This document shows, in pieces, positions 1,146-42,374 of a stretch of DNA of 47,705 nucleotides. Both the position numbers and the translations under genes were made by a program. Below the pieces are notes generated by a model. It saw only the letters and a list, made by a program, of their open reading frames with translations, did no database searches and was not told where the DNA came from. Numbering within the stretch: the stretch's first letter is position 1; each line of letters opens with the position of its first letter. Location: positions 46,668-94,372 of the forward strand of contig CAYWKA010000001.1 in assembly GCA_964459265.1 (NCBI GenBank), read 5' to 3'. The stretch is from an uncultured Candidatus Saccharibacteria bacterium (GTDB taxonomy: Bacteria; Patescibacteriota; Minisyncoccia; Minisyncoccales; Paceibacteraceae).

Positions 1146-1146
1146 C

Positions 1147-1677: not shown

Positions 1678-1702
1678 GTTACATTGCCTCCTTTCTACTA
1701 CC

Positions 1703-19008: not shown

Positions 19009-19357
19009 GGGGATGGAAGGCCTTGATGAGGAGTCGACTGAAACGGGCAAGCGAAGTTTGTTGGTTCTTCTTAAAAACTAGCAAAAAGAATAAGCGCCAA
19101 CTTATTTCAAAAACAACCTGCTTTAGCATACGCTTAAGCAGCATCTTCTTCACTAACTCTCGATAGGTGAAGCAGGTGCCATAACATCGAGATAGATAGC
19201 TCTTTTAAGCCTGAAAGAGTTATTAAATCTTTTGTAGGCTAAAAGCAGAGAGATTTTCGCCTAATTTCTACTTTCTGCTTTTAAATAAATTGGGCTAAGC
19301 TTGTAGAACTACTTTGGAAAAACTCCCCAGATCCGAGTTCAACTCTCGGCATCTCCA
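19009..19357 (+). ncRNA. ssrA: tmRNA (ssrA)
   Basis: The 5' GGGGATG pairs with the 3' CATCTCC, including the G3:U wobble (Ala identity), followed by discriminator A. T-arm CCGAG-TTCAACT-CTCGG. An internal tag frame (GCA at 19081 or GCC at 19096) ends ...QKQPALAYA-TAA at 19135-19137. The terminal CCA is not fully encoded (A-CAA). Confidence 0.85.
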
Positions 19358-19377
19358 CAAAAATAATTATTAAACTT

Positions 19378-20533: not shown

Positions 20534-20558
20534 AACTGCGCCCGAAGGTGCAGTTTTT
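20534..20558. terminator. Bidirectional intrinsic terminator between rplT and purF
   Basis: AACTGCGCC-cgaa-GGTGCAGTT is a 9-bp stem (one G:T) with a tetraloop. TTTTT follows on the plus strand and CTTTATT on the minus strand. Confidence 0.6.
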
Positions 20559-21954: not shown

Positions 21955-22040
21955 TGTTTTTTTATCCTCCTTTCCTGTAGAATTTCGATATTCAAATGGA
22001 AAAGAGCTAATTAATTAGCCCTCCTTTTATATTTTACAGT

Positions 22041-30235: not shown

Positions 30236-30855
30236 TTTTTATGAAACTCTTCATCTAAAAGTTCCATAAATTCCAACATAAGAGGGTCATCAAAGAATTC
30301 TCTAGCCCAGAGCCACCAAGGACAAAGGGGTGGTTTTTTATACTTTTTCCAATATTCCAAAGCTTGTAAAAAATTTTCCATTTTGTCAGCTTGCTGAAAA
30401 AATCTTCCTTCGGGAGTTAAACCTTTTTTATAATCTAACCAGAGATTTCTTATTTCTTTTTTAAGATGAGAAGGTAATTTAGAAGTCAGTTTTTCCAGAG
30501 CCTTTGTTTCTTTTCTGTATTTTTCCTGAAACTTTTTTTTCTTTTCTTTATCGGTAAATCTTGGCCAGGTTTTCATTAAGACCCGAAGCGCTTTTTTATT
30601 TTTCGGTAAAACCGAATCGTAGGGAGTAGTATCTCCGGCATACACTTCGCATAAATCATGAACCAAAGCTATTTTCAAAATTTTTTCTTTATTCATTCCT
30701 CTTTTCTCCTCTCCTAAAATCCATCCCATCAGAGCTGAACGAAAAATGTGCTCAGCAATACTTTCTGGGTTTTTAATTTGGTTTATTACCCATCCCCGGC
30801 GGGGCATTTTTTTTAATTTTCCAACCTCAATAAAAAATTTAAGAAGTTCCTTCAT
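30232..30855 (-). CDS. HD-domain phosphohydrolase (YfbR-like 5'-nucleotidase type)
   Basis: 207 aa with ESIAEHIFRSA...ALVHDLCEVYAGD (H...HD...D metal ligands). Confidence 0.75.
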   Translation of the reverse strand: MKELLKFFIEVGKLKKMPRRGWVINQIKNPESIAEHIFRSALMGWILGEEKRGMNKEKILKIALVHDLCEVYAGDTTPYDSVLPKNKKALRVLMKTWPRFTDKEKKKKFQEKYRKETKALEKLTSKLPSHLKKEIRNLWLDYKKGLTPEGRFFQQADKMENFLQALEYWKKYKKPPLCPWWLWAREFFDDPLMLEFMELLDEEFHKK

Positions 30856-31805: not shown

Positions 31806-32831
31806 ATGGATGTACTAAATATTGATGGTTCCTATTTAGAAGGCGGCGGTCAGATCCTTCGGACAGCCACTGCTTTGTCGGTAGTGACTAAAAAACCTTG
31901 CCGGGTTTTTAATATCCGGCAAGGAAGACCTAAACCAGGCTTGGCTGCTCAGCATCTTTTGGGAGTTCAAGCTTTAGCTCAATTATGTAGCGGTAAAATA
32001 GAAGGAGATTTTTTGGGTTCAGAAGAAATTAAATTTTTTCCTGGAGAAATCCAAGCTAAAGACCTTTCTGTAAAAATTGAAACTGCCGGCAGTATCACTT
32101 TAGTTTTACAAACATTAATTCCGCCTGCTTTATTAGCTTCCCAACCTATTAAAATTACTTTTGCAGGCGGTGCTACTGATACTTTTTTTTCTCCAACCAT
32201 TGATTATTTCTGTTATGTGTTTTTAAAAATTTTAGAAAAAATGGGGGCAAAAACAGAAGTTAGTATTATTAAAAAGGGTTATTATCCTGAAGGCGGGGCT
32301 AAAGTAGAAGCAAGAATTTTTCCTTCAAAACTAAAACCTCTAAATCTAACCGAAAGAGGAAAAATAAAGAAAATTACCATAATTTCTGGGGCTTCGACGT
32401 CCTTAAATAACAAAAAAGTGGTAGAAAGACAGATAGCTGGGACAAGAGAGGTTTTGGGAAGATTAAACTTGCCCGTTGAGGAAAAAGCAGAATATTATCA
32501 AACTCAATGCCCAGGCAGTCAGATTTGTTTAATGGCTGAATTTGAAAATACCATAATTGGCACAGATAACTTAGGGAAGCTCGGTAAGCGGGCTGAAGAT
32601 GTTGGGAAAGAAGCCGCTTTGGAATTATTAAAAGAACAAAAATCCGGAGCCTGTTTAGATAAGCATTTGACCGACCAGATTTTACCGTATTTAGCTTTGG
32701 CTCCTGGTAAATCTCAAATTAGCGTCTCTGAAGTTACAAAGCACTGTAAAACTAATATTTGGGTAATTGAACAGTTTATAGAAGGAAAATTTGAAATAAA
32801 AAACCAGCAAATTAGCTGGTTTCCAAAATAA
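31806..32831 (+). CDS. rtcA: RNA 3'-terminal phosphate cyclase
   Basis: 341 aa with IDGSYLEGGGQILRTATALSVV...RPKPGLAAQHL, matching the RtcA N-terminus including the AMP-accepting His region. Confidence 0.9.
   Translation: MDVLNIDGSYLEGGGQILRTATALSVVTKKPCRVFNIRQGRPKPGLAAQHLLGVQALAQLCSGKIEGDFLGSEEIKFFPGEIQAKDLSVKIETAGSITLVLQTLIPPALLASQPIKITFAGGATDTFFSPTIDYFCYVFLKILEKMGAKTEVSIIKKGYYPEGGAKVEARIFPSKLKPLNLTERGKIKKITIISGASTSLNNKKVVERQIAGTREVLGRLNLPVEEKAEYYQTQCPGSQICLMAEFENTIIGTDNLGKLGKRAEDVGKEAALELLKEQKSGACLDKHLTDQILPYLALAPGKSQISVSEVTKHCKTNIWVIEQFIEGKFEIKNQQISWFPK
32794..32821 (-). terminator. Intrinsic terminator of the long minus-strand array, embedded in the 3' end of rtcA
   Basis: AACCAGC (32802-08) / GCTGGTT (32815-21) is a 7-bp stem with a 6-nt loop. 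On the minus strand TTTTTTATTT follows. It lies 34 nt past the stop at 32855. Confidence 0.55.
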
Positions 32832-32854: not shown

Positions 32855-33850
32855 TTATAAAGTCGTTATTGGTCGGGATTGTAAAATATAGAATTTATTT
32901 TTAGTCAAGGCCCATTCGATATCTTGAGGGCTTTTATAATGATTTTCAATTTTCTGACAAAGCTTAGCTAATTTAATAATTTGTTTATTAGAAAGTTTTT
33001 GTAGGCTTTTCTTAGACTTTGGAACTGACACTTCTTTGGTGCCTTTTTTATTTTTAATAATCATTTTTTCTTGGATGCCAATGTTTATATCTAACATTGA
33101 CCAATCTTTTTTAGAGACAACGTAGGTATCAGGAGTAATCTTGCCTCCAACAATTGATTCTCCCAAACCCCAACCTGCCTCAATCACCATCTGTTTAAGA
33201 TTTTGAGTTACCGGATGAGCAGTAAAACAAATTCCAGCAATTTTAGGATCAACCATTTTTTGAACAACAACCGCTACTCCTACCGGATAACATTCAGCAA
33301 AGTATTTACAGGTTTTAGCTCTGATTTTCTTTTGAGAATTGACCGTTGTGAATTTTTTTTCAAAGGCATAAAAGAGAGCTCTAGAAGTAAATAGAGACGA
33401 CCAACAATTTTTAATATTTCTTAATAAATTTTCCCTTGTTGTCCCTAAATAAGTTTCTAATTCTCCTGCCCAAGAAGCAATTGAAGAATCTTCAGCAGTG
33501 GCAGACGATCTTACTGAAACATATTTTGTTTTTAACTTTTTAAATCCTAAAAAGAATTCTCTCTCTAGATCTTTTGGCATCTTACCATCTCTAATTAAAT
33601 CTCTTGTCTCTCCAGAGGCTCGATCAACTGATTTAATGTCTTTATAATTAATCCTTTTTAATACAGTAGCAATATCAACTAAAAGATCAGTTTCTTCTAA
33701 AAATTTATCAAAAGCCGAAATCAAAATCACAAAACCTGGCGGCACGGGTATTTTAGCGTGCATCATTTCCCCAAGTGAAGCTCCCTTACCACCAGCAATT
33801 TTTATATCTTTAATAGAAATCTGAGGAAAGAATCTAATAAATTTAAACAT
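32855..33850 (-). CDS. Stand-alone PEP-synthase/PPDK N-terminal ATP-grasp (nucleotide-binding) domain protein
   Basis: 331 aa with IAGGKGASLGEMMHAKIPVPPGFVI, VSVRSSATAEDS, VAVVVQKMVD and the terminal IEWAL...FYILQSRPITTL. No swivel or PEP/pyruvate-binding domain. Confidence 0.85.
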   Translation of the reverse strand: MFKFIRFFPQISIKDIKIAGGKGASLGEMMHAKIPVPPGFVILISAFDKFLEETDLLVDIATVLKRINYKDIKSVDRASGETRDLIRDGKMPKDLEREFFLGFKKLKTKYVSVRSSATAEDSSIASWAGELETYLGTTRENLLRNIKNCWSSLFTSRALFYAFEKKFTTVNSQKKIRAKTCKYFAECYPVGVAVVVQKMVDPKIAGICFTAHPVTQNLKQMVIEAGWGLGESIVGGKITPDTYVVSKKDWSMLDINIGIQEKMIIKNKKGTKEVSVPKSKKSLQKLSNKQIIKLAKLCQKIENHYKSPQDIEWALTKNKFYILQSRPITTL

Positions 33851-33852
33851 AA

Positions 33853-35406
33853 TTATAAATTAACTTTTTCGATTTTTCCGTGATTAAGTCTTAGAATAAT
33901 CCGGTCGCCATTTTTAAATACTTTTGTTGCTTTTTTGGTGCCAACGATGCAAGGAATATTCAACTCTCGGCTAATAATAGCGGCATGGCAGGTCATCCCG
34001 CCTTCATCGGTAATTATTCCTCTGGCTTTCTTTAGTAAAGGCAGAAACTCGGGTCTGGTCATTGTTGTAACTAAAATTTCTCCTGGCCGAAAAGGGTCTT
34101 TGAAGGGGTTAATTACAACCCTTACTCTCCCTCCAGTATAATTTCTTTCTCCTCTGGAAACCGTAATGCCTTCTATCATTTTAACCTTTACTTGTTCTTC
34201 CTTAAATAAAATTTTCCATAGATTTTCTGCTTTTATACCAGCATAAATTTGCCATTTTGTTTTGTATTGATAGACAAAAATAAATTTCTTTTTTCTTTGG
34301 CTTAAAATCTTAAACCACTTTTTTTTACCCTCCGAAATAATTTTTGGCATTTCTTCAGGTAAAGCACAGTCCAAGGTAAGATAACTGATTTTAACTCGAT
34401 CTGCCAATTCTTTTAAAAGTTCGGCCGCATAATGGCTTCCCCTTAAAGCCATCTCCTTTCTTTCGTCAAAACAATAACTAAAAAAAGATATTGCTTCTAG
34501 TTCTTTTTTTAATCTCTGAGAAATTTTAATTTCCCTTAAAATATCTCTTTTTCTTTTCAAAATGTTTTTGCTGTAGTTTTTTAAATCTCGATATTCTTTA
34601 TTAATTTCTTTTTTAGTTTTGTTTTTTATTTCTTCTTTTAAAAATAAAAAGAATTTAAAAATAGTTATTGGCTCCGTTTTAAAATAGTTAGTTCTAACCC
34701 AATAAAATTTTTTCTGGTGCTCCAAAAGTTGCTTATAAAAAGGTGGGTCAAGGTCTTTAATTTTTGAAATTTTTATTTTTTTCTTTAAGAACTTTAAGAT
34801 TTTTTTATTTCTAAAAATTATTAAACAAATTTTAAGAAAATCTAAACGTTCCTTACCGATAAAAGAAAGCTTTTCTGGTTGAGTTAAAATAGTAAAGTAT
34901 TCACTTATAGTTTTATTATCTAAAGTATTTAATTCTTTTTTAAATTTTGGGAGAAGACTTTTTTCAGTATAAACAGCTGTTCCCTCCATAACTAAAGGGA
35001 TTGTCCACTCGTTAGTAAAGTTCTCCACAAAATTTAGATACTCAGAAACTAATTCCTTATTAGATAACTCTTTCAAGTTGATTTTATTTAAGTGCTGAAA
35101 ATTTTTTATTAATTTTTTTTGAAATTTCTGCCAAACTTTAAACGGTTTGAAAATTGTTTTTTTAATAAACATCTCAACGATTCTTTTTGTGATTAAGTAG
35201 TTTTCATCTTCGTCAATAAACTGCCAAAGATAATTGTTTTTTAGAGTTAAGATAACAATTTTAAATCCAAAACCTAAGTATTTTCTCATATCAATAAAAC
35301 CAATCCAAGGATAACAATTCTGAAACAAGACCGGAGCCGAAGCAATCCAAAATTTTCTTCCTTGAATTTCTTTAATTAAATTTTGTAAATCTGTTTTGTT
35401 TTTCAT
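33853..35406 (-). CDS. Swivel-domain paralog 1: about 400-aa helical N-domain plus C-terminal PEP-utilizer phosphohistidine domain
   Basis: 517 aa. C-terminus: GEILVTTMTRPEFLPLLKKARGIITDEGGMTCHAAIISRELNIPCIVG, with the His codon at 33985-33987. The N-domain shares motifs with paralogs 2 and 3: L-S-x3-L-x3-Y, KKFYW, DERK...Y. Confidence 0.8.
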   Translation of the reverse strand: MKNKTDLQNLIKEIQGRKFWIASAPVLFQNCYPWIGFIDMRKYLGFGFKIVILTLKNNYLWQFIDEDENYLITKRIVEMFIKKTIFKPFKVWQKFQKKLIKNFQHLNKINLKELSNKELVSEYLNFVENFTNEWTIPLVMEGTAVYTEKSLLPKFKKELNTLDNKTISEYFTILTQPEKLSFIGKERLDFLKICLIIFRNKKILKFLKKKIKISKIKDLDPPFYKQLLEHQKKFYWVRTNYFKTEPITIFKFFLFLKEEIKNKTKKEINKEYRDLKNYSKNILKRKRDILREIKISQRLKKELEAISFFSYCFDERKEMALRGSHYAAELLKELADRVKISYLTLDCALPEEMPKIISEGKKKWFKILSQRKKKFIFVYQYKTKWQIYAGIKAENLWKILFKEEQVKVKMIEGITVSRGERNYTGGRVRVVINPFKDPFRPGEILVTTMTRPEFLPLLKKARGIITDEGGMTCHAAIISRELNIPCIVGTKKATKVFKNGDRIILRLNHGKIEKVNL

Positions 35407-35996
35407 ACTTTATATTCTTTTTTCCTTTCATTCAGCATTTGGCGGGCCATTTTTCGAACCTCTAAAGTAAAAAGGTTGGGAATACTTTTTTCTAAATATT
35501 TACACGTTTCTTCGGGAGACCATTTAAATATCCTCATAATTGCCCGGAATCTAGCCAAAGAGAATCTATCTAAAGTGTCTAGATCATTAAATATTTTTTT
35601 GTTTTCGGTATTAAATAATTTTTTATCTTCTATATCGTGGGTACTAATTATCTCGACAATTTCTTTAATTTTTTTTGACGGATAGTGAATTTTTTGTAAT
35701 AAATCTTTAGCAATTTTGGCACCGGTCAACATATGAACCAACTTAGAGTCGGGCAATTTATTGGGGCCAGAAACTCTATCAAAGTGCTCGGGCAAAATAA
35801 CGGCATGCCCAATATCATGAAAAATAGCCACCGGAACAAGAATATCCGGATCCCCCCTATGATATTTTTTAATAAAGTCTGCCACCAATTCGGCAGCTTG
35901 CTTGCAATGAATTAAATCATCCGGTCGACACTTCTTTAAAATCGGTTCGGCCAACTGCCAAATTTTCTGATATTTTTGGGAAATATTAATTCTCAC
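35403..35996 (-). CDS. HD-domain metal-dependent phosphohydrolase
   Basis: 197 aa with H(30)...VAIFHDIGH...D. Its stop overlaps the paralog 1 start (ATGA at 35403-35406). Confidence 0.8.
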   Translation of the reverse strand: MRINISQKYQKIWQLAEPILKKCRPDDLIHCKQAAELVADFIKKYHRGDPDILVPVAIFHDIGHAVILPEHFDRVSGPNKLPDSKLVHMLTGAKIAKDLLQKIHYPSKKIKEIVEIISTHDIEDKKLFNTENKKIFNDLDTLDRFSLARFRAIMRIFKWSPEETCKYLEKSIPNLFTLEVRKMARQMLNERKKEYKV

Positions 35997-36012
35997 AGTT
36001 TAAATAATAAAT

Positions 36013-37449
36013 TTATTTAATAATTTTTACTATGCCCTTATTGGCATTTACTTCTACTTTCATTCCGTCTTTTAATATTTTGGTAGCAACCTGGGTTCCG
36101 ATGATGCAGGGGATATTTAATTCTCTGGAAATAATGGCAGCATGACAAGTAATGCCTCCTTCGTCGGTAATAATAGCGCTGGCCAGTTTTAAAATCGGCA
36201 CGAATTCAGGTCTGGTCATCTGAGTAACAAGTACATCTCCTTTTTTCATTTTTTTAAAATCGTTCTCGGTTATAATAATTTTTATTCGCCCCTTCACTTC
36301 CCCCAGACTTGCCGAATTTCCTTTAATAATTTCTTTTTGCTTTATTAGAAAACTTTTCTCAAAGTATTGATGAGTTCTCCTCGCTTCTTTTCCATAAAAA
36401 CATTTATATTTTTTGAGACCGAGACCGACAACAAGAATCATTTCTTTCATTTCCCATTTTTTAACTAAAGCAGGAGAAATTTTAAAACTTTCCCAATCGT
36501 AAGGGAAGCTGTATTTTAAAATGGAGTAATTAATCTTAGTTCTCCGGCTGAATTCTTTTAAAAATTTATCGGCCATGGCAACCTCCATCAAAATCTGTTT
36601 TTTTCTTTCGTCTCTCCATCCTCCCATTCTGCGAAAAAAATAAAAGAAATTCCGAAGGGGCTGGGATATTTTGCGTTTTTGGATAATCTCTCGCTGTTTT
36701 CTTTTAAGAAATTGCAAATGTCGGAGATTGTTCTTTATTTCTTTTTCTAAAGCAGCCCTATTGGTTTTTTTTATTCTTTGACGCCAATATTCTTCATCTA
36801 AATTTTTTGCAAAAGCCCAGTTGTTTTGAAGCCAATGATATTTTTTAGAGTATAATTCTAATTTCGATGGAAAATTTTTATCTTTTCTTTGATAAATTTT
36901 AAAAAGTTTCAGAAGCTCCTGCTGAGCCAAGGCGAAAAAACCTGGAGTAGTAGATGAACTTAAAATTTGTATTTCTTGACGCGGTAAGTTCATAGAAAAC
37001 CGGGTAAAAACTTTATTAAGGAAATGCTCGTCCCAGGCATTGAATAATTCCAAAATATATGGCCGAGAAGAACCCCATATTTTTTCTCGTAATAAAGTAA
37101 ATTGACGGTATAATTTTAGTAAATCTTGATCGCTTAATTTTTGAAAATCGGAGAATTGAAAATTTTCAATAAATTGCTCTTCTCCAATTTTATCTTTTTG
37201 CCACTGCTTAAATTCTTTATCAATAGCGAAGGGGGTTTTAAGGGTCTTGTTAACCAAGGCGGAGGCGGCCTGATACTGGACTCTTTTATTATAATAAGAA
37301 TAAGCGACAAAATTACGAGAATAAAAAGCTCCGGCATTTACTCTCTTAAAGTAGAAGCAATAAGCTAAACTAATATAAAAAGGAGCCATCGCTCCACCCT
37401 CCTGATACCATTCGGTTTGAATAATTTTTCGACAATCAATTTTAGGCAT
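36013..37449 (-). CDS. Swivel-domain paralog 2
   Basis: 478 aa. C-terminus: GDVLVTQMTRPEFVPILKLASAIITDEGGITCHAAIISRELNIPCIIG, with the His codon at 36142-36144. N-domain motifs LSDQDLLKLYRQF, KKYHW and RDERKKQ. Confidence 0.8.
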   Translation of the reverse strand: MPKIDCRKIIQTEWYQEGGAMAPFYISLAYCFYFKRVNAGAFYSRNFVAYSYYNKRVQYQAASALVNKTLKTPFAIDKEFKQWQKDKIGEEQFIENFQFSDFQKLSDQDLLKLYRQFTLLREKIWGSSRPYILELFNAWDEHFLNKVFTRFSMNLPRQEIQILSSSTTPGFFALAQQELLKLFKIYQRKDKNFPSKLELYSKKYHWLQNNWAFAKNLDEEYWRQRIKKTNRAALEKEIKNNLRHLQFLKRKQREIIQKRKISQPLRNFFYFFRRMGGWRDERKKQILMEVAMADKFLKEFSRRTKINYSILKYSFPYDWESFKISPALVKKWEMKEMILVVGLGLKKYKCFYGKEARRTHQYFEKSFLIKQKEIIKGNSASLGEVKGRIKIIITENDFKKMKKGDVLVTQMTRPEFVPILKLASAIITDEGGITCHAAIISRELNIPCIIGTQVATKILKDGMKVEVNANKGIVKIIK

Positions 37450-37464
37450 TAAATTTATAAATTT

Positions 37465-39018
37465 TTAGCTTAATATTTTAACCGTTCCCCTGACAGCATC
37501 TACCTCTATCTTCATTCCGTCTTTTAAAACCTTGGTGGCGATTTTTGTTCCAACAATGCAGGGTTTTTTCATTTCTCTGGAAACAATGGCAGCATGGCAA
37601 ATTATGCCGCCTTCATCGGTCACAAAAGCGGAGGCTTTTTTCATGGCAGAAATTAAATCGGGATTGGTAGCTGGTGATACCAAAATGTCTCCTTCTCTCA
37701 TTTTTTCTACATCAGCTTTTACGGCAATAATTTTTGCTATACCCCTTACTTTACCCGAATAAGCTATCATGCCTTTTAATTCTTTCATTCCGGTGGTGAA
37801 TTCTTTTGTAGCAGTAAGACTCTCTCTAAGATATTTTTTGTGTCTTTTTGCTTTTTGGCCTTCGTAAACTGCTGTTTTCCCTTCCGAAATCATAGCAATA
37901 CAATACTGGAGACGCTGTTTGGCTTTTTTTTGATCAATTTTCCTTTGGATTAAGGCCCGGCGCAGCTCGTCTGAGGTCAAATATTTTACTTCGGATATGC
38001 TGAGATTGAGACGCCTTCCAATTTCTTCTATTACTGGGTCCATTAGTACATAAGATTGTTGGTATATTCCTTTTCTATAGTCTTTAAACCACATGAAAAA
38101 TTTAGAAACTTCTAATAGATACTGTAGCTCCTGAGGCAACTTTAGTTTTTTGATTAGCTTTTCTCTTTGATGGGGTAATTTTCTAAAGTGTTCTCTATTT
38201 TTTTTCATCTGTCCCCGAATAGACAATTTAGTTTCTAAACTTTCCTTCATCATTTGTAGCACATCTTCTATGCTCATTACTGGACCAATATAATAATAGG
38301 GTAGCCATTCATATTTCTTTCTGTGTTTTTTTAGTTTCTGATAAATTAGGGGGAAATCATGCTGGATTTTGATAATAGCTTTTCTGATGGGCAATTTTTT
38401 AATAATCTTAATAACCGCTCTGTTAGAATGCTCTATATTTAAAATTAATTTTAATCTATCCACCTCTTCTTTTCGAACCTCGCTTAATTGATCAGGCGAA
38501 CTTAATAAACTATAGTACTCGCCTGTTTTTTCTTCTAAGTTTTTTTTGACTAAAAATCGTCTTAGGTTTTCTACAACATAATCCGATAAAAAACTGGTGC
38601 CGAGACCATCTATTACAACCGGCACCCACCCCCAAATTCTTAGTTTTCTCATAAGGATTTGATATTCCAAATAAAGATTTAATAAGCTCTGGCTGGGTAG
38701 TCCGGGGAGTTCTTTGGATTTAATATTTTTGCAGAAAGAGATTAATTTCTTTGAATATTTATAAATATTTTTTCCGACTAATTTATAAAACTTTTTATCT
38801 TTTTTAATTTTATTGAAAAGAAGCTTGCCTAATTCATCTAATTCCTGAGCAATACCATAATAATAAACATGACCCTTTTTAAATTCTAAAATGATTTTAC
38901 TAGTTTTTTTGCCGTAGGCGGGTTCAATATCTTTGGTCAAGCATTCATCGGCAAAATACCAGGGATAAAGATAAAATCTATCTCTGTCAAAATATATTTT
39001 AAATTTTTTTCTTTTCAT
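37465..39018 (-). CDS. Swivel-domain paralog 3
   Basis: 517 aa. C-terminus: GDILVSPATNPDLISAMKKASAFVTDEGGIICHAAIVSREMKKPCIVG, with the His codon at 37594-37596. N-domain motifs LPSQSLLNLYLEY, KKYEW and KDYRKG...VKYLTSDEL. Confidence 0.8.
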   Translation of the reverse strand: MKRKKFKIYFDRDRFYLYPWYFADECLTKDIEPAYGKKTSKIILEFKKGHVYYYGIAQELDELGKLLFNKIKKDKKFYKLVGKNIYKYSKKLISFCKNIKSKELPGLPSQSLLNLYLEYQILMRKLRIWGWVPVVIDGLGTSFLSDYVVENLRRFLVKKNLEEKTGEYYSLLSSPDQLSEVRKEEVDRLKLILNIEHSNRAVIKIIKKLPIRKAIIKIQHDFPLIYQKLKKHRKKYEWLPYYYIGPVMSIEDVLQMMKESLETKLSIRGQMKKNREHFRKLPHQREKLIKKLKLPQELQYLLEVSKFFMWFKDYRKGIYQQSYVLMDPVIEEIGRRLNLSISEVKYLTSDELRRALIQRKIDQKKAKQRLQYCIAMISEGKTAVYEGQKAKRHKKYLRESLTATKEFTTGMKELKGMIAYSGKVRGIAKIIAVKADVEKMREGDILVSPATNPDLISAMKKASAFVTDEGGIICHAAIVSREMKKPCIVGTKIATKVLKDGMKIEVDAVRGTVKILS

Positions 39019-39045: not shown

Positions 39046-39411
39046 TTAATAAACCAAGTGGAAAAGGCCAATGACTTTATTTTGTTTTCCTTCTTCTTCT
39101 TCTGATTCTTGGCAAATTATATTAAAGGTTTTGGTTGCTTCTTCTGTTTTGTCAATGATTAGTTTAATGCCCTTTTCCAAAATAAAATTTTGAGCTTCTT
39201 CAGTCATCTTAGCCAAACCTCCTTCACCAGTCCCAACAACGATAGTATCTGGATTTTCTTTTACCGCTCTTTTAAAATCCTCTACGTCGAAAACGTGGCT
39301 TTGAGCTCGCCACCAAGATAAAACTTCATCCGTCCAACGAACCTCCACGTCCTCATTATAAGTTTTACCACCAATGGTAATCGCTCCAAATTTATATTCG
39401 TCTATCATCAT
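39046..39411 (-). CDS. Mth938-like (DUF498/NDUFAF3-like) domain protein
   Basis: 121 aa with FGAITIGGKTYNEDVEV...W...H...D...VVGTGEGG...GIKL...T..A..TFN, the pattern of the Mth938 domain. Confidence 0.6.
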   Translation of the reverse strand: MMIDEYKFGAITIGGKTYNEDVEVRWTDEVLSWWRAQSHVFDVEDFKRAVKENPDTIVVGTGEGGLAKMTEEAQNFILEKGIKLIIDKTEEATKTFNIICQESEEEEGKQNKVIGLFHLVY

Positions 39412-39421
39412 TAAAAATAGT

Positions 39422-40384
39422 TTAAACAGTGTTTACGTTTAAGTTTGACCATTTACCGCACCTATCCCCCCAGCGCGCCACTACTTTCCCTTCGATTCTG
39501 GCCTCGATTACTTCACAACGATTTGGACATCCTTTGCATTGAAAAGAAGTGCATTTTATATCCTGGTCTGATATTTCAAAACCCCTAAAACGGGCAGCGG
39601 AAGGATTGTAATCTTTTACTAAAAGCGCTGCTCCAAAAGCTCCAATCACCGTATTATACGGCGGGACAATTATTTTCTGGTTTAGAGCTTTCTCAAAAGC
39701 TTTTCTTATTCCTAAGTTCTCCGAAACTCCTCCCTGAAAGACAATGGGAGGTTTGATGTTTTTTCCTTTCGCCACATTGTTCAAAAAGTTCCTTACCAAG
39801 CCCTGGCAGAGTCCAGCCACGATATCTTCGGTAGAATGACCGATTTGTTGTTTATGAATCATATCTGACTCGGCAAACACTGTGCATCTTGAACCAATAG
39901 TGGTTGGGTTTTTTGATTTTAAGGCTATTTCTCCAAAACTCTCAACTGGTAATTTTAAACGAAAGGCCTGAGCATCAAGAAAAGCGCCAGTACCGGCAGC
40001 ACATATAAGATTCATGGCAAAGTCAACGGCTACGCCATTTTCTAAAATAATAATCTTGGAATCTTGGCCGCCAATTTCAATCACCGTTCTAACCTCTGGA
40101 ACAAAAAAAGAAGCGCCCTTGGCGTGAGCTGTAATTTCGTTTTTAACTAAATCTGCTCCGGTAATTACTCCGGCTAATTGACGAGCCGATCCCGTAGTCC
40201 CCACTCCAGCGATTTCTACCTTTTTAGGTATTTGTTTTTTTAATTCTTTTAACCCTCGCTGGATTGCCCCAATAGGATTTCCTTCGGTCCTAATATAAAG
40301 AGAAGACAAAACCTGATTTTTCTCGCCAATCAGAACCAAATTGGTAGAGATTGAACCCACATCAATGCCTAAATAGGTTTTCAT
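39422..40384 (-). CDS. BcrAD/BadFG-type ATPase (HgdC-like activase of 2-hydroxyacyl-CoA-dehydratase/benzoyl-CoA-reductase family) with Cys-rich C-terminal extension
   Basis: 320 aa with LGIDVGSISTN, EIGGQDSKII, LICAAGTGAFLD and GSRCTVFAESD (ASKHA fold plus the two bridging-cluster Cys). An extra C-terminal motif CTSFQCKGCPNRC...DRCGKW is present. Confidence 0.88.
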   Translation of the reverse strand: MKTYLGIDVGSISTNLVLIGEKNQVLSSLYIRTEGNPIGAIQRGLKELKKQIPKKVEIAGVGTTGSARQLAGVITGADLVKNEITAHAKGASFFVPEVRTVIEIGGQDSKIIILENGVAVDFAMNLICAAGTGAFLDAQAFRLKLPVESFGEIALKSKNPTTIGSRCTVFAESDMIHKQQIGHSTEDIVAGLCQGLVRNFLNNVAKGKNIKPPIVFQGGVSENLGIRKAFEKALNQKIIVPPYNTVIGAFGAALLVKDYNPSAARFRGFEISDQDIKCTSFQCKGCPNRCEVIEARIEGKVVARWGDRCGKWSNLNVNTV

Positions 40385-41457
40385 GATTGTTTTTTGTTAT
40401 GATAGTGATTTCTTACCACATCCACGAAGGCCTCCAATCGGGTATTGATTCCAGCCTCAGCCACTTGTTCGTCTAAAGATAAGGACAAAAAGGGAATACC
40501 TGATTCCAGATGAATCTTCTCTAAAATCGGCCTGACTGTTACCTCCGGCATACAGCCGAAGGGTAATAAGTGAATTATACCGTCAAAATCTTCTTTTACA
40601 TAATGCAACATTTCATAAATGGCATCACGGCCGTGACCACCGACAGTGGATTTTAAATAAGGATTTATTTTTCTTTGAATTATCCAATCTTTCCAGGGAA
40701 AAATCAATTTCTTGACATGATAAGTAAGGTCCATTTCCCGGTAAACTTCAATCCCCTCTTTGCCCAATTTACTCTCTAAATCAAAATTGATATCCGGGTC
40801 GCAAACGGTATAAATTTCTCCTATCAAAGCCACTCTGGGAGGTTTTTTATCTTTTTCAATTTCAATTTCAGAAAGACTTTTTAAAATTTCTTTTCTCAGT
40901 TTTGGAAAATCTTTTTCCTCTTTTAACTCCTCAATTTTAAGAAAACTCTCCTGTAGTATCTTATCTGTAGCTCCTCTTTTAATTTCTCTGGGTCGATAAA
41001 ATTGGGCCCTCTTTTCAATTTTTTCGATTAATCTTAACTTTCTAAGAGAAAAACGAAATGCCCTTAAAATCTGCCAGAAGGAAGCTCCAGTAACTTCTTT
41101 TATTTTTTTATAAATATCTTTGGGAGTAGCTCTGAAATCTAAAAAATTAATATTATGGCCAGCTTCTTTCAAAACTTTTTCTTGAACTACGCCGTAATAT
41201 CTTTGGCGGCAAGAACCGCCAACATTTTGAACCATAAAAACGGTATCGGCTCCCTTTTTTAAACTGGGAATTATATTGCCTAAAGTTACCTTTAAGGGAA
41301 AGCAATACATTTCTGGAGAAATTTTAACACCTTCAGCGATTGTTTCTGAGGTGGTTTTTTCCGGAGGAATAACCTCCAAGCCCAACTGCTCAAAAAGGGT
41401 CTTAAAGGCAATGGTATAATTCCCCCATCTGGCAAAAGTAATAATTGGCTTTTTCAT
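40381..41457 (-). CDS. Activase-related DUF2229-like protein B (dehydratase-component-like)
   Basis: The ORF-track start (41529) would overlap the upstream gene by 68 nt. I place the start at the ATG at 41457 (MKKPIITFARWGNY...). The C-terminal motif LSLSLDEQVAEAGINTRLEAFVDVV matches that of the neighbouring protein. Conserved Cys in YCFPLK and FGCMPE. Confidence 0.7.
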   Translation of the reverse strand: MKKPIITFARWGNYTIAFKTLFEQLGLEVIPPEKTTSETIAEGVKISPEMYCFPLKVTLGNIIPSLKKGADTVFMVQNVGGSCRQRYYGVVQEKVLKEAGHNINFLDFRATPKDIYKKIKEVTGASFWQILRAFRFSLRKLRLIEKIEKRAQFYRPREIKRGATDKILQESFLKIEELKEEKDFPKLRKEILKSLSEIEIEKDKKPPRVALIGEIYTVCDPDINFDLESKLGKEGIEVYREMDLTYHVKKLIFPWKDWIIQRKINPYLKSTVGGHGRDAIYEMLHYVKEDFDGIIHLLPFGCMPEVTVRPILEKIHLESGIPFLSLSLDEQVAEAGINTRLEAFVDVVRNHYHNKKQS

Positions 41458-41461
41458 AGCT

Positions 41462-42373
41462 TTAGTGCAAAGTATCGATAAAGGCCTCCAGTCGAGTCTG
41501 TAGACCCGCCTCTCCGGTATGTTCATCAATTAATAAATAAAGGAATGGAATTTTATTTTGTTTAAATTCTCTCTCAACAAATTCTTTTAATACGGCGTCG
41601 CAACCACACTGAAAAGAAGAAATCTCAATTGCGCCGGCGAGATCATAATTCAGAATACCTTGAATTTTCTCCATTATTTCTTTCCCGAACTCCCAATGAA
41701 ACTTTGGCCAATTTTGGATTTGGTCCGCCAGCTGGCGGATTGGATTTTGGATTTCTGACGTGGGGACTTCCTCTATAAAAATCGGCTCTGCTTCTAATTT
41801 TTCTAATTTCTCTTTTATCTTTAAATTAATGTAGTCGTCGTATAGATTATATTGGTGAGAAATTAATACTATTTTCTTTTTTTTAGATTGGACTTTCTTA
41901 AAAAAATCTTTTTCTTCTTTCTTTTTAGCTTGCTCTTCTCTTAGAAAAGTTCTTTCCAAAGCTTTTTCAACTTCTTTTTTTTCTTTCCCTAGTTTTTTAC
42001 CTAATTTTCCAAGAGTTTTTTTAAATGGTTCTTTTCGATAATCAAAAGTTTCGGTTAAAATTGGTGTTTTTACTAAAATCTTAGACAGGTCAGGAAGGCC
42101 GAAAAACTTAGGACAATATTCAAGCTTTTCTGAATTAGTTTTTAACCGAGGGACAAAAATCCAATCGCACTTCCCGTCTAACCATAGAAGGTGGCCAAAA
42201 AAAACTTTAGTTGAAAAACAATTTTCAGGGTCGGAGGATTTTACTCCAGCTTCAACGATTTCTTTATTAGTTAAAGGAGAAAGTAAAACTTTAAAATTGA
42301 GCTCTCTAAAAAAAGTTTCCCAAAATAGGGGCTGTTTCCAATAGATTAGAGCTTTGGGTATGCCTATAGTCAT
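41462..42373 (-). CDS. Activase-related DUF2229-like protein A
   Basis: 303 aa with IGIPKALIYWKQPLFWETFFRELNFKVLLSP...CFSTKVFFGH...IFVPRL, SSFQCGCDAV and the C-terminal LYLLIDEHTGEAGLQTRLEAFIDTL. Confidence 0.7.
   Translation of the reverse strand: MTIGIPKALIYWKQPLFWETFFRELNFKVLLSPLTNKEIVEAGVKSSDPENCFSTKVFFGHLLWLDGKCDWIFVPRLKTNSEKLEYCPKFFGLPDLSKILVKTPILTETFDYRKEPFKKTLGKLGKKLGKEKKEVEKALERTFLREEQAKKKEEKDFFKKVQSKKKKIVLISHQYNLYDDYINLKIKEKLEKLEAEPIFIEEVPTSEIQNPIRQLADQIQNWPKFHWEFGKEIMEKIQGILNYDLAGAIEISSFQCGCDAVLKEFVEREFKQNKIPFLYLLIDEHTGEAGLQTRLEAFIDTLH
41710..41756. repeat. Palindrome-cored intragenic repeat, copy 3 (perfect core TCCGCCAGCTGGCGGA at 41724-41739)
   Basis: AATTTTGGATTTGG + core + TTGGATTTTGGATTT. 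It is read as IQNPIRQLADQIQNW, a reading frame shifted by one nucleotide relative to copies 1, 2 and 4. Confidence 0.75.
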
Positions 42374-42374
42374 T

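What the first reader, a model, noticed from the sequence alone, without database searches (positions are those of the whole stretch)
32855..39018. Split dikinase cassette: one ATP-grasp subunit, three divergent acceptor-plus-phosphohistidine-swivel paralogs, one HD hydrolase
Five contiguous, translationally tight genes. (i) A 331-aa protein is only the PpsA/PPDK N-terminal ATP-grasp domain (GGKGASLGEM ... ILQSRPITTL). (ii-iv) Three proteins of 478-517 aa end in an unmistakable PEP-utilizer mobile domain, with the phospho-carrier His in TDEGG(M/I)(T/I)CHAAI(I/V)SRE...PC(I)(V/I)G (His codons at 33985, 36142 and 37594). Their swivel-coding DNA is visibly similar across the three genes. The roughly 400-aa helical N-domains are strongly diverged but keep shared landmarks: L(S/P)xxxLxxxYxx(F/Y), KK(F/Y)xW, (D/Y)(E)RK...Y(L)(T). 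(v) An HD phosphohydrolase is wedged between paralogs 1 and 2 with an ATGA overlap. No PEP/pyruvate-binding TIM-barrel domain exists anywhere in the window, so this is not PEP synthase or PPDK. There are two precedents for the chemistry. Rifampin phosphotransferase is a single chain of ATP-grasp, large helical substrate domain and His swivel. Phenylphosphate synthase of Thauera has its ATP-grasp and His-domain on separate subunits. A single ATP-grasp serving three different acceptor modules, plus a dedicated HD enzyme, is not an arrangement I know to be described. Hypothesis: a modular ATP (beta-phosphate) to His to small-molecule phosphorylation system with three substrate specificities. It could serve xenobiotic or antibiotic inactivation or metabolite activation, with the HD protein recycling or removing phosphate.
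Basis: partly seen in the sequence, partly recalled or inferred. Interest (0 to 1): 0.8.

Follow-up and report, generated by a model that had tools for sequence, protein, structure and literature searches.

The report
Split dikinase with three acceptor subunits
A tiny-genome (candidate phyla radiation) bacterium encodes one ATP-binding kinase subunit next to three divergent phosphate-carrying acceptor subunits and a phosphatase, a small example of large, undescribed arrays in ultra-small bacteria and archaea that are usually mislabelled as PEP synthase.

Summary
Five tightly packed minus-strand genes encode the following:
- a stand-alone PPDK_N ATP-grasp protein (331 aa);
- three paralogs (517, 478 and 517 aa; 28-31% identical) that each end in a PEP-utilizers phosphohistidine swivel domain;
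- an HD hydrolase (197 aa).

The window has no PEP/pyruvate TIM barrel. A high-confidence AlphaFold model of one paralog (P3) matches only rifampin phosphotransferase (RIF-binding domain plus swivel). The RPH catalytic R666-E667-x-x-K670 stretch aligns to a conserved D-x-R-K motif.

The cassette is therefore a split, RPH-type small-molecule dikinase. It has the same kind of architecture as the known two-component enzymes PpsAB, CreHI and HpeHI.

The new element is the 1:many layout, and it is not a local oddity. In CPR and DPANN genomes I found arrays of up to 13 modules, never more than one ATP-grasp per locus, and natural polyproteins (one ATP-grasp plus eight modules, 3761 aa). The HD family is small and specifically linked to orthologs of P3.

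Substrates remain unknown. Links to phosphatases, flavin genes, PTA and regulators favour metabolite phosphorylation.

Verdict: new variant of a known kind, of real interest for the biology and annotation of episymbionts. The function is inferred, not shown.

The parts
32855..33850 (-). Stand-alone ATP-grasp (nucleotide-binding) subunit, 331 aa, the HpeI/PpsB-like component. It carries K22 in GGKGASLGEM.
   Evidence: Pfam PPDK_N, E 2.6e-91, profile positions 2-311 of 328. PDB sequence hits: PEP synthase 8a8e 3e-62, RPH ATP-grasp 5hv6 1.2e-51, HpeI 9GOJ 1.6e-45 over residues 2-329 (the identity of 9GOJ comes). The top 120 homologs are all stand-alone proteins of 310-382 aa, 58-73% identical, named Patescibacteria where a name exists.
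33853..35406 (-). Acceptor subunit P1, 517 aa: RIF-binding-domain-like helical N-domain (about 1-400) plus C-terminal phosphohistidine swivel. The swivel is coded at 33883-34092, His474 at 33985-33987, and the DERK motif lies at residues 314-317.
   Evidence: Pfam PEP-utilizers 6.6e-26. NCBIfam RPH-like PRK06241 models align residues 80-513 to positions 449-888 of 898. The closest relative is P0181, 69% identical.
35403..35996 (-). HD-domain metal-dependent phosphohydrolase, 197 aa. Its stop overlaps the P1 start (ATGA).
   Evidence: Pfam HD 2.3e-6, above the gathering score. In 49 homologs H30, H60, D61, H64, H71, H88, H120, D121 and D140 are invariant. AF2 pLDDT is 96.5. The nearest folds are small stand-alone HD hydrolases (3djb, YpgQ 5ihy, YedJ 3gw7, 3dto), TM 0.54-0.64 but E >= 8.5e-3. 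The family has only 59 members, and 19 of them share a contig length with P3 orthologs.
36013..37449 (-). Acceptor subunit P2, 478 aa: helical N-domain plus swivel. The swivel is coded at 36034-36246, His436 at 36142-36144, and the DERK motif lies at residues 280-283.
   Evidence: Pfam PEP-utilizers 1.6e-23. It is 30-31% identical to P1 and P3. Outside its own 50% cluster, the one other candidate relative I compared directly is only 29% identical, and that protein looks more like P1.
37465..39018 (-). Acceptor subunit P3, 517 aa, the conserved core paralog. The swivel is coded at 37486-37698, His475 at 37594-37596, and the KDYRK motif lies at residues 312-316.
   Evidence: Pfam PEP-utilizers 1.2e-23. 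More than 100 near-full-length relatives of 29-56% identity, mostly CPR. AF2 model pLDDT 94.2, pTM 0.91. Foldseek top hits are RPH-Lm. K312-D313-Y314-R315-K316 aligns with RPH-Lm R666-E667-Y668-P669-K670.

Best explanation
The five genes encode a split, multi-acceptor small-molecule dikinase of the rifampin-phosphotransferase / HpeHI type.

Proposed mechanism:
1. The 331-aa ATP-grasp protein binds ATP.
2. The C-terminal swivel domain of each of the three roughly 500-aa subunits docks on it in trans. Its histidine (H474, H436 or H475) takes the beta-phosphate, and AMP and Pi are released.
3. The swivel domain swings back onto its own helical domain, which resembles the RIF-binding domain.
4. 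There a conserved D-x-R-K/E/R cluster positions the phosphoryl group for transfer to a hydroxyl group of a bound small molecule.

Outside that cluster the helical domains are only 21-26% identical, so each subunit probably handles a different substrate. One slowly evolving ATP-grasp hub would then serve an expandable set of specificity modules.

The HD protein is a metal-dependent phosphohydrolase genetically tied to the P3-type module. It most likely acts on the P3 product or substrate, as a kinase/phosphatase pair.

Status of each step:
- Shown here: domain homology, fold, conservation of the catalytic residues, synteny, natural fusions, and a ratio of at most one grasp per locus to many modules.
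- Inferred: phosphotransfer in trans to all three paralogs, the dikinase stoichiometry, small-molecule acceptors, distinct specificities, and the role of the HD protein.

The biological role I consider most likely is phosphorylation (activation, trapping or salvage) of metabolites that the symbiont takes from its surroundings or host. I rank a dedicated antibiotic-resistance role lower.
For: Domains and homology:
- Domain assignments.
- The ATP-grasp is homologous over its full length to the free-standing HpeI component (9GOJ, 1.6e-45) and to the RPH and PEPS ATP-grasp domains.
- The P3 model (pLDDT 94.2) matches RPH-Lm RIF-binding domain plus swivel and nothing else over its full length.
- RPH residues R666/E667, essential for the second phosphotransfer, and K670 (PMC4844700) align to KDYRK in P3. 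D-[EY]-R-K is invariant in P1-P3.

Conservation across 112 single modules from other loci:
- The His is 100% conserved.
- The few conserved N-domain positions are D313, R315, K316, E332, R336, E351 and R369.
- The mean top-residue frequency is 0.25 in the N-domain against 0.63 in the swivel. This means constant chemistry and a variable pocket.

One hub, many modules:
- Of 66 loci, 39 have two or more modules, 27 have three or more, 9 have eight or more, and the maximum is 13. No locus has more than one ATP-grasp.
- Loci fetched by the ATP-grasp gene carry 4-5, 5 and 1 modules.
- Fusion proteins: L026, 3761 aa, one grasp plus eight modules; L044, one grasp plus four; L006, grasp plus module plus P3-ortholog module, followed by the HD gene.
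- Stand-alone grasp orthologs are 58-73% identical, against 29-56% for P3 orthologs, as expected for a shared hub.

HD protein:
- An HD gene lies next to, or one gene from, the P3 ortholog in L001/L002 (one organism), L003, L005, L006, L039 and the window.
- 19 of 58 HD homologs share a contig with P3 orthologs.

Other context:
- A relative has a module-HAD phosphatase fusion (P0218).
- HAD, His_Phos_1 and LMWPc genes sit in or beside arrays.

Precedent for the chemistry: in two-component HpeHI the His mutant is inactive, AMP is the product, and no stable complex forms (PMC12167813).
Against: - No biochemical or interaction data exist for any member of this CPR/DPANN family. AlphaFold-multimer was not available.
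- Substrates are unknown, and no neighbouring gene is universally conserved.
- 43 of 66 loci show no ATP-grasp within +/-10 kb, so some modules may use a distant or fused grasp, or another donor.
- In P1 the position equivalent to RPH R666 is Phe, although the neighbouring invariant Arg may substitute.
- The only other candidate relative of P2 that I compared directly is 29% identical and looks more like P1. P2 could therefore be fast-evolving or decaying.
- HpeH alone catalyses ATP-independent phosphoryl exchange, so ATP-driven kinase activity need not be the only reaction.
- The loci were chosen by similarity to P3 or to the swivel, and the taxonomic labels of the MAGs were not verified.
Confidence: 0.7

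Rival explanations
1. The chemistry is the same, but the biological role is a battery of xenobiotic- or antibiotic-inactivating phosphotransferases. Each module would neutralise a different toxic small molecule made by hosts or neighbours, as RPH does for rifamycins.
For: - The only solved structure that matches over the full length is the resistance enzyme RPH.
- N-domains diverge quickly and P1 and P2 have few orthologs, a pattern typical of arms-race families.
- ABC transporter genes flank some arrays.
- A resistome survey already counts rph-like genes in CPR (PMC8651080).
Against: - Scores against the curated RPH models are far below their cut-offs (64.7-73 bits against 999).
- PADLOC gives no convincing match to any defence-system model; its two hits are marginal, E about 0.005.
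- Arrays are interleaved with flavin genes (flavokinase, RibE, RibH) in three genomes and with PTA in five DPANN loci.
- Arrays are accompanied by, or fused to, phosphatases, which would undo an inactivating phosphorylation.
- The same arrays occur in DPANN archaea, where I would expect most antibacterial drug targets to be absent (my own knowledge, not tested here).
- The P3 clade is conserved across several CPR phyla, which suggests a housekeeping substrate.
Confidence: 0.15
2. Only the module translationally coupled to the ATP-grasp gene (P1) is its partner. P2 and P3 would work without it, for example as ATP-independent phosphoryl-exchange enzymes between phosphorylated and unphosphorylated metabolites through the His. 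Alternatively they would be charged by a different donor.
For: - HpeH alone transfers phosphate from 4-phosphoacetophenone to acetovanillone (PMC12167813).
- 43 of 66 loci have modules but no ATP-grasp within 10 kb.
- PTA genes, which make acetyl phosphate, are embedded in five DPANN arrays.
Against: - Polyproteins with one grasp and up to eight modules argue that all modules use the grasp.
- No locus has more than one grasp, whatever the number of modules.
- The swivel domains of all three paralogs keep the PEPS-like docking and His motif.
- The strong conservation of the grasp fits many partners.
Confidence: 0.1
3. Some or all modules are not enzymes. They would be ligand-sensing or DNA-binding regulators derived from a dikinase, like the PPS-like repressor PspR of Haloferax.
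For: - PspR is an RPH-like protein reported to act as a repressor without RIF-kinase activity (PMC10948481).
- Relatives P0223 and P0238 carry an N-terminal MerR/HTH_17 domain fused to a module.
- TrmB-like regulator genes neighbour arrays in nine loci.
Against: - P1-P3 have no DNA-binding domain.
- The His and the D-x-R-K/E/R phosphotransfer cluster are conserved in P1-P3 and across 112 modules, which points to selection for catalysis.
- Thirteen regulators of one type in a genome I assume to be about 1 Mb, as is typical of CPR (genome size was not measured here), is implausible.
Confidence: 0.04
4. The cassette is a fragmented or split PEP synthase or pyruvate phosphate dikinase, as public annotations say.
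For: - Sources name homologs 'phosphoenolpyruvate synthase', 'pyruvate, water dikinase' or 'PEP-utilizing enzyme'.
- The ATP-grasp and swivel domains score best against PEP synthase models.
Against: - No PEP/pyruvate TIM-barrel domain is present in the window.
- The swivel is C-terminal, not central.
- The domain preceding it is RIF-binding-domain-like by fold.
- All scores are far below the PEPS and PPDK equivalog cut-offs (for example 297.6 against 598 bits).
Confidence: 0.01

Closest known systems
Two-component small-molecule dikinases: phenylphosphate synthase PpsAB (Thauera/Aromatoleum), CreHI (Corynebacterium), HpeHI (Rhodococcus)
   Same: - The ATP-grasp sits on its own polypeptide of about 35-40 kDa, and the substrate domain plus C-terminal His swivel sits on another, encoded side by side.
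- The window ATP-grasp matches the HpeI crystal structure sequence (9GOJ) at 1.6e-45 over its full length.
- The acceptor subunit has an RPH-like fold, as reported for HpeH.
- The expected mechanism is the same.
   Different: - Those systems are 1:1 pairs with an acceptor subunit of about 70 kDa. They act on phenolic compounds in aromatic catabolism in free-living bacteria.
- Here one grasp is paired with three acceptors of about 55-60 kDa (up to 13 elsewhere), plus an HD enzyme, in CPR/DPANN genomes and with no aromatic-catabolism genes nearby.
- The NCBIfam PRK08296 models, which end in the same swivel, match only the swivel of P1-P3. I did not establish whether these models represent the PpsA/HpeH clade.
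- Direct sequence comparison with HpeH, CreH or PpsA could not be run.
Rifampin phosphotransferase (RPH-Lm; PDB 5FBS/5FBT/5FBU, 5HV1)
   Same: - It is the only solved structure that matches the acceptor subunit over the substrate domain plus swivel (E 5e-14, TMq 0.62).
- The catalytic R666-E667-x-x-K670 region aligns to a conserved motif.
- The ATP-grasp is homologous (1e-51).
   Different: - RPH is a single chain of about 865 aa and a resistance enzyme.
- Identity is only 14-17%.
- Curated RPH model scores are far below cut-off.
- Nothing indicates rifamycin as a substrate.
PEP synthase / pyruvate phosphate dikinase
   Same: The ATP-grasp and swivel domains are homologous and, by sequence, are the closest relatives. 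Most modules keep the PEPS-like GGxT[CS]H motif.
   Different: There is no PEP/pyruvate TIM barrel. The domain order differs, and the substrate domain is unrelated.
Bacterial PEP:sugar phosphotransferase system (a functional analogy only)
   Same: The logic is one general phosphoryl-donor enzyme with a swivel-type phospho-His feeding many substrate-specific modules. The swivel domain is homologous to that of Enzyme I.
   Different: The donor is expected to be ATP, not PEP. The window's five proteins match no Pfam or NCBIfam HPr or EII model, no membrane permease lies inside the cassette, and the phospho-His sits on each specificity module rather than on the general enzyme.
PspR, the PPS-like/RPH-like repressor of Haloferax mediterranei
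   Same: It is an RPH-like protein family member in a non-resistance, non-PEPS role. Some relatives of the modules carry HTH domains.
   Different: PspR is a single chain with an ATP-binding domain and is reported to bind DNA. P1-P3 have no HTH domain and keep the catalytic residues.

Membership tests
RPH-type small-molecule dikinase superfamily (ATP-grasp + RIF-binding-like domain + C-terminal His swivel) | PPDK_N-type ATP-grasp nucleotide-binding domain | tested here: met
   PF01326, E 2.6e-91, nearly full profile, but on a separate polypeptide. Homologous to the RPH ATP-grasp 5hv6 at 1.2e-51.
RPH-type small-molecule dikinase superfamily (ATP-grasp + RIF-binding-like domain + C-terminal His swivel) | C-terminal (not central) PEP-utilizers swivel domain with the catalytic His in a T/SxxGGxxxH motif | tested here: met
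   PF00391 lies at residues 439-508, 402-472 and 441-511 of 517, 478 and 517. The motif TDEGG(M/I)(T/I)CH gives His474, His436 and His475.
RPH-type small-molecule dikinase superfamily (ATP-grasp + RIF-binding-like domain + C-terminal His swivel) | Helical substrate domain with the fold of the RPH RIF-binding domain | tested here: met
   AF2 model of P3 has pLDDT 94.2. Foldseek hits: 5fbu E 4.9e-14, TMq 0.62; 5fbt, 5hv1 and 5fbs follow; the next hits cover only the swivel. The profile aligns positions 217-505 to RPH 566-866. This was tested structurally for P3 only. For P1, NCBIfam RPH-like models extend to residue 80. P2 rests on its homology to P1 and P3.
RPH-type small-molecule dikinase superfamily (ATP-grasp + RIF-binding-like domain + C-terminal His swivel) | Residues for the second phosphotransfer (RPH-Lm R666, E667, K670) | tested here: inconclusive
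   E667 aligns to D313 and K670 to K316. R666 aligns to K in P3, R in P2 and F in P1. An invariant Arg (R315) sits at the P669 position. Across 112 modules D is conserved at 71%, R at 86% and K at 76%. The pattern is compatible, but the equivalence is not exact.
RPH-type small-molecule dikinase superfamily (ATP-grasp + RIF-binding-like domain + C-terminal His swivel) | Dikinase stoichiometry: ATP + X-OH + H2O -> AMP + Pi + X-O-P through beta-phospho-His | not testable with these tools
   This needs enzymology.
Two-component small-molecule dikinases (PpsAB / CreHI / HpeHI) | ATP-grasp component and acceptor/swivel component are separate proteins encoded together | tested here: met
   Gene order and 2-nt spacing. 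Stand-alone grasp genes accompany modules in at least 12 other loci.
Two-component small-molecule dikinases (PpsAB / CreHI / HpeHI) | One acceptor component per ATP-grasp component | tested here: not met
   Three acceptors per grasp here, and up to 10 per stand-alone grasp and 8 per fused grasp elsewhere.
Two-component small-molecule dikinases (PpsAB / CreHI / HpeHI) | Membership of the HpeH/CreH/PpsA sequence clade (about 45% mutual identity; phenolic substrates) | not tested
   Sequences of HpeH, CreH and PpsA were not available to the tools. Indirectly, the grasp is closer to PEPS (3e-62) and RPH (1e-51) than to HpeI (1.6e-45), which suggests a separate lineage.
Two-component small-molecule dikinases (PpsAB / CreHI / HpeHI) | Both components are required for ATP-dependent phosphorylation of the substrate | not testable with these tools
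   This needs reconstitution.
PEP synthase / pyruvate phosphate dikinase | C-terminal PEP/pyruvate-binding TIM-barrel domain (PEP-utilizers_C) | tested here: not met
   No Pfam hit in the five proteins. phmmer with five PEPS C-terminal domains against all window ORFs gave no hit at E<=10, while the positive control gave 18 hits.
PEP synthase / pyruvate phosphate dikinase | Score above the curated equivalog cut-off | tested here: not met
   Best scores are 297.6 bits against a cut-off of 598 for the grasp and 108-134 bits for the paralogs.
Rifamycin-inactivating phosphotransferase proper (NF041857 / NF000283) | Score above the curated cut-off | tested here: not met
   246.7 bits (grasp) and 64.7-73 bits (paralogs) against a cut-off of 999.
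HD-domain metal-dependent phosphohydrolases | HD domain with conserved H...HD...H...HD...D metal ligands | tested here: met
   PF01966, 28.3 bits against a cut-off of 22. H30, H60, D61, H88, H120, D121 and D140 are invariant in 49 sequences. The fold is that of small HD hydrolases, TM about 0.6. Substrate and activity were not testable.

The most novel reading that the evidence does not exclude
Ultra-small episymbionts of both domains (CPR bacteria and DPANN archaea) share a previously unrecognised hub-and-spoke phosphorylation system. One highly conserved ATP-grasp enzyme charges the swivel histidines of an expandable, fast-diversifying repertoire of 3 to more than 13 specificity modules, which are sometimes strung into polyproteins of more than 3700 aa. 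The system would work as an ATP-driven, cytoplasmic counterpart of the PTS that captures, activates or neutralises many different host-derived small molecules. It would be a lifestyle-defining trait that occupies roughly 1-2% of these genomes, if they are about 1 Mb as is typical of such organisms (genome size was not measured here), and that is currently hidden under 'PEP synthase' or 'phenylphosphate synthase' annotations.
Probability: 0.3. Interest if true: 0.85.

Novelty: new variant of a known kind. Interest (0 to 1): 0.68.

Why it matters
**Annotation.** Public sources name these genes PEP synthase, pyruvate-water dikinase or PEP-utilizing enzyme. One DPANN study read genes of this kind as phenylphosphate synthase (phenol degradation). 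Its dataset includes a MAG whose locus L020 holds nine modules plus one grasp. Such labels distort metabolic reconstructions of CPR/DPANN, for example on gluconeogenesis or aromatic catabolism.

**Biology.** Organisms with very small genomes that devote up to about 20 kb to one paralog array must gain something important from it. The array is a concrete, clonable entry point to the question of what CPR/DPANN cells take from their hosts or surroundings.

**Enzymology.** A single ATP-grasp that serves many acceptor subunits, with natural polyproteins of one grasp plus eight modules, would be a new organisational principle for swivel-domain dikinases. It would also be a source of new small-molecule kinases for biocatalysis.

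**Testability.** The proteins are soluble and of moderate size, and the HpeHI work already provides assays.

Tried and rejected
- **PADLOC defence models:** no meaningful hit for any of the six proteins, so this is not a known defence system.
- **Promoter and terminator scan, 32-46.5 kb:** counts are no higher than in shuffles (45 against 40.9, and 16 against 13.3). Operon boundaries therefore could not be set.
- **Sequence search of the HD protein against PDB:** nothing below E 0.7. Foldseek gives only family-level resemblance, so no substrate call is possible.
- **Clustering of about 1800 neighbouring ORFs from 60 loci:** no universal partner. The best families are ABC ATPases and TrmB-like regulators, each in 9 loci. 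One apparent 6-locus cluster proved to be a single-linkage artefact that contained a methyltransferase.
- **DUF498 gene directly upstream of P3:** not found in any other locus, so it is not part of the conserved system.
- **Split PEP synthase idea:** rejected, because there is no TIM barrel.
- **Viral contigs:** 134 relatives, and the 80 best listed all match only the swivel (no match starts before residue 358), none the N-domain. The module family was therefore not detected on viral contigs.
- **Literature searches** combining swivel/PEP-utilizing/dikinase with CPR/DPANN/Patescibacteria, and PF00391/PF01326: no description of these arrays.
- **ATP regeneration from phosphorylated metabolites** (a reverse dikinase reaction, prompted by the PTA neighbours): set aside on thermodynamic grounds for ordinary phosphate esters and acetyl phosphate. 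This is my own estimate, not a tool result.
- **AlphaFold-multimer of the grasp with each paralog:** could not be run with the tools offered.

Full report
**1. What is in the sequence**

- ATP-grasp, 32855-33850 (331 aa)
- P1, 33853-35406 (517 aa)
- HD, 35403-35996 (197 aa, GTG start)
- P2, 36013-37449 (478 aa)
- P3, 37465-39018 (517 aa)

The junctions are tight: 2 nt, an ATGA overlap, 16 nt and 15 nt (coordinates, junction sequences).

Pfam assigns the following:
- PPDK_N to the 331-aa protein (E 2.6e-91, nearly the whole profile);
- a C-terminal PEP-utilizers mobile domain to each of P1-P3 (E 1e-23 to 7e-26);
- HD to the 197-aa protein (above the gathering score).

The paralogs are 28-31% identical over about 430 residues. 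Their N-domains are 21-26% identical and their swivels 40-55%.

No ORF in the window resembles the PEP/pyruvate TIM barrel of PEP synthase (with a positive control). The same gene order appears on 22 independently assembled contigs.

The window is ordinary chromosomal DNA of a small-genome bacterium. It carries aminoacyl-tRNA synthetases, SmpB and tmRNA, IF3, RecO and purine genes. The best-named homologs of all five proteins come from Patescibacteria/CPR.

**2. What the parts are**

An AlphaFold2 model of P3, built on 48 homologs, is of high confidence (pLDDT 94.2, pTM 0.91). It shows a small N-terminal sheet, a long helical domain and the swivel.

Against the PDB, the only structures that match over the whole length are Listeria rifampin phosphotransferase entries: 5fbu E 4.9e-14 and TMq 0.62, followed by 5fbt, 5hv1 and 5fbs. 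PPDK, Enzyme I and pyruvate kinase match the swivel only.

A profile of the P3 family aligns positions 217-505 to RPH-Lm residues 566-866. This places P3 K312-D313-Y314-R315-K316 on RPH R666-E667-Y668-P669-K670. In RPH, R666 and E667 are essential for the second phosphotransfer and K670 belongs to the same hydrogen-bond network (PMC4844700). The D-[E/Y]-R-K core is invariant in P1, P2 and P3.

The ATP-grasp protein is homologous over its full length to several solved chains:
- PEP synthase (8a8e, 3e-62);
- the RPH ATP-grasp (5hv6, 1.2e-51);
- HpeI, the free-standing ATP-grasp component of a characterised two-component dikinase (9GOJ, 1.6e-45; identity of the entry).

The cassette is therefore a split RPH-type small-molecule dikinase. 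It is not a PEP synthase or PPDK. All curated equivalog scores are far below their cut-offs.

**3. What is already known**

Split versions of this enzyme type are described. Phenylphosphate synthase PpsAB, CreHI and HpeHI each pair a 40-kDa ATP-grasp protein with a 70-kDa protein that combines an RPH-like substrate domain and the swivel His. For HpeHI:
- the His mutant is dead;
- AMP is the product;
- the components do not form a stable complex;
- the acceptor subunit alone can shuttle phosphate between substrates (PMC12167813).

What no searchable paper describes is one ATP-grasp with several acceptor subunits, or any such system in CPR/DPANN.

**4. The wider picture**

P3 has more than 100 near-full-length relatives of 29-56% identity. 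Nearly all come from CPR lineages, and where they carry a name it is 'PEP-utilizing enzyme' or similar.

A profile of the three N-domains finds 2985 representatives (50%-identity clusters) among 1.84 billion proteins. Most are about 500 aa, and some are multi-module giants of up to 2309 aa.

I fetched 79 loci from GTDB species genomes and several more by exact protein look-up. I then scored all ORFs with HMMs for the N-domain, swivel, ATP-grasp and HD.

Among 66 loci with non-PEPS modules:
- 39 have two or more modules, 27 have three or more, and 9 have eight or more. The maximum is 13 (a Nealsonbacteria contig, confirmed).
- No locus has more than one ATP-grasp. 23 loci have exactly one, stand-alone or fused.

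Three loci fetched by the ATP-grasp gene instead of by P3 carry 4-5, 5 and 1 modules next to it.

Twelve loci encode proteins with several swivels. The clearest cases are:
- a 3761-aa Woesearchaeota ORF with one N-terminal ATP-grasp followed by eight modules;
- a 1994-aa CPR protein with a grasp plus four modules;
- a 1311-aa Moraniibacteriota protein with a grasp, a module and a P3-ortholog module, followed by the HD gene.

These fusions are the strongest computational evidence that one ATP-grasp works with many modules.

Consistent with a shared hub, stand-alone grasp orthologs are 58-73% identical. This is much more conserved than any module.

Across 112 single modules:
- the His is invariant;
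- the swivel is well conserved (mean top-residue frequency 0.63);
- the N-domain is very variable (0.25), except at D313, R315, K316, E332, R336, E351, R369 and two tryptophans.

The phosphotransfer core is therefore held constant while the rest, presumably the substrate pocket, diversifies.

The loci are predominantly CPR (Nealson-, Moran-, Kerfeld-, Falkow-, Buchanan-, Uhr- and Woesebacteria, and others) and DPANN (Woese-, Nano-, Micr-, Pace- and Iainarchaeota). A few MAGs carry other labels, which I did not verify.

**5. The three paralogs are not equivalent**

- P3 is the conserved core type, with clear orthologs in other phyla (246-362 bits on the N-domain alone).
- P1 has a 69%-identical relative. 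Otherwise its relatives among the fetched loci, which were chosen by similarity to P3 or to the swivel, are weak.
- Apart from its own 50% cluster, the one other candidate relative of P2 that I compared directly is only 29% identical, and that protein looks more like P1.

**6. The HD protein**

Its family is small: 59 proteins, all about 200 aa. The metal-ligand set is invariant: H30, H60-D61, H64, H71, H88, H120-D121 and D140.

The model is confident (pLDDT 96.5). It resembles small stand-alone HD hydrolases such as 3djb, YpgQ, YedJ and 3dto, but only at family level (TM 0.54-0.64, E >= 8.5e-3).

Genetically it is tied to the P3 type:
- The HD gene lies directly next to the P3 ortholog in L001/L002 (one organism), L003, L005, L006 and L039, and one gene away in the window.
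- 19 of 58 HD homologs have the same longest-contig length as one of the top P3 orthologs.

'Dedicated HD enzyme' is therefore supported as a P3-HD pair. What the HD protein hydrolyses is unknown.

**7. Clues to the role**

No neighbour is universal, but several themes recur.
- **Phosphatases of four superfamilies** occur in or beside arrays (HD, HAD, His_Phos_1, LMWPc). One relative is a module-HAD fusion (P0218).
- **Flavin genes** sit inside or next to arrays. Flavokinase, riboflavin synthase and lumazine synthase occur together in three CPR genomes, and flavokinase alone in two more.
- **Phosphotransacetylase genes** lie inside five DPANN arrays.
- **Regulators:** TrmB-like regulator genes appear in nine loci, and MerR/HTH-module fusions exist. 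This fits a small-molecule-binding domain.

PADLOC gives no convincing match to any defence-system model, and the module family was not detected on viral contigs.

Taken together, I favour phosphorylation of cellular or scavenged metabolites (activation, trapping or salvage) over a pure antibiotic-resistance battery. The latter is not excluded.

**8. Mechanism and confidence**

Proposed sequence of events:
1. ATP binds the grasp subunit.
2. The swivel His of a module attacks the beta-phosphate in trans, giving pyrophospho-His and then phospho-His, with release of AMP and Pi.
3. The swivel returns to its own helical domain.
4. The D-x-R-K/E/R cluster positions the phosphoryl group for transfer to a hydroxyl group of the bound substrate.

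Homology, fold, residue conservation, synteny and fusions are shown here. Phosphotransfer, stoichiometry, small-molecule acceptors and distinct specificities are inferred from RPH and HpeHI.

I put 0.7 on this explanation. The main rivals are:
- a resistance role with the same chemistry (0.15);
- ATP-independent or otherwise-charged modules (0.10);
- regulators (0.04);
- a split PEP synthase (0.01).

**9. Novelty and verdict**

By fold and domain content the cassette belongs to the RPH-type dikinase superfamily. It works like the two-component dikinases, but it fails their 1:1 feature and appears to be a separate CPR/DPANN lineage.

I rate it a new variant of a known kind.

Noticed in passing
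window 13515-16964 (-): A 1149-aa class-I aminoacyl-tRNA synthetase (tRNA-synt_1, IleRS-like) carries a histidine-phosphatase (His_Phos_1) domain inserted at residues 481-658, between the two halves of the catalytic domain. This is an unusual architecture.
   Followed up: no
window 39046-44758 (-): Directly upstream of P3, on the same strand and tightly packed, lie DUF498/Mth938-like (121 aa), a BcrAD_BadFG ATPase, two DUF2229/HGD-D 'CoA enzyme activase'-type proteins, an MJ0043_C/PHP_C-like 415-aa protein and a Trp/Tyr-type permease. They are probably co-transcribed with the dikinase genes. DUF498 is not found in any other array locus.
   Followed up: partly
window 31806-32831 (+) and 30232-30855 (-): An RNA 3'-phosphate cyclase (RtcA) gene converges on the ATP-grasp gene, with only 23 nt between the stop codons. 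A second HD protein, of the YfbR-like/HD_3 type, lies 2 kb further on.
   Followed up: no
L026 788-12073; L033 1-8814; L044 6944-12928; L006 384-4319: These are giant multi-swivel polyproteins. L026 (Woesearchaeota) is 3761 aa, with one ATP-grasp plus eight modules. L033 is at least 2937 aa with eight full and one truncated swivel and is cut by the contig end. L044 is 1994 aa, with a grasp plus four modules. L006 is 1311 aa, with a grasp plus two modules followed by an HD gene.
   Followed up: partly
L001 13066-14613; L088 487-1857; L089 5512-7528; also L017 4090-4449 and L035 7550-8842: Flavin genes (flavokinase, riboflavin synthase RibE, lumazine synthase RibH) sit inside or immediately beside module arrays in three CPR genomes. 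Flavokinase alone does so in two more. This is a possible lead to substrates. The link is absent from this window.
   Followed up: partly
L011 1917-2891; L015 14092-15084; L020 16925-17899; L028 10268-11272; L046 3-650: Phosphate acetyltransferase (PTA_PTB, E 1.9e-89 for the L011 gene) genes are embedded in the module arrays of five loci; four carry DPANN labels and L046 is labelled Aminicenantes. In three of them a hexapeptide-repeat transferase is also nearby.
   Followed up: partly
proteins P0218, P0223, P0238 (relatives found): These are domain fusions of the module. P0218 (721 aa) has a C-terminal HAD phosphatase. P0223 and P0238 (about 582 aa) have an N-terminal MerR/HTH_17 DNA-binding domain.
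   Followed up: no
L020 (Woesearchaeota isolate DPANNHV_H2.bin.75): This MAG carries the same DPANN-HV isolate prefix as the MAGs of the study that reported 'phenylphosphate synthase' genes in DPANN and noted that phenylphosphate carboxylase was missing (PMC8091004). The locus holds nine modules plus one ATP-grasp. If these are the genes that study counted, the phenol-degradation reading is probably a mis-annotation.
   Followed up: partly
swivel motif, position -2 from the His (P1 T472, P2 T434, P3 I473): 88% of 112 modules, including P1 and P2, keep the Thr that is the regulatory phosphorylation site in PEP synthase and PPDK (GGxT[CS]H). The P3 clade has Ile or another residue there (the motif is described in PMC12167813). 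I did not look for a PSRP/DUF299-type regulator.
   Followed up: no
window 19009-19360 (+) and 18561-19007 (+): A tmRNA gene (tag peptide ANLFQKQPALAYA) lies immediately downstream of smpB. This is ordinary, but it confirms a bacterial chromosome.
   Followed up: no
window 1-3013: The higher-GC stretch (0.43-0.46 against about 0.35 elsewhere) corresponds to the purine-biosynthesis genes purC, purE and purB. A PurF-like amidotransferase and IMPDH lie at 20557-23537. This organism therefore retains at least part of purine synthesis.
   Followed up: no
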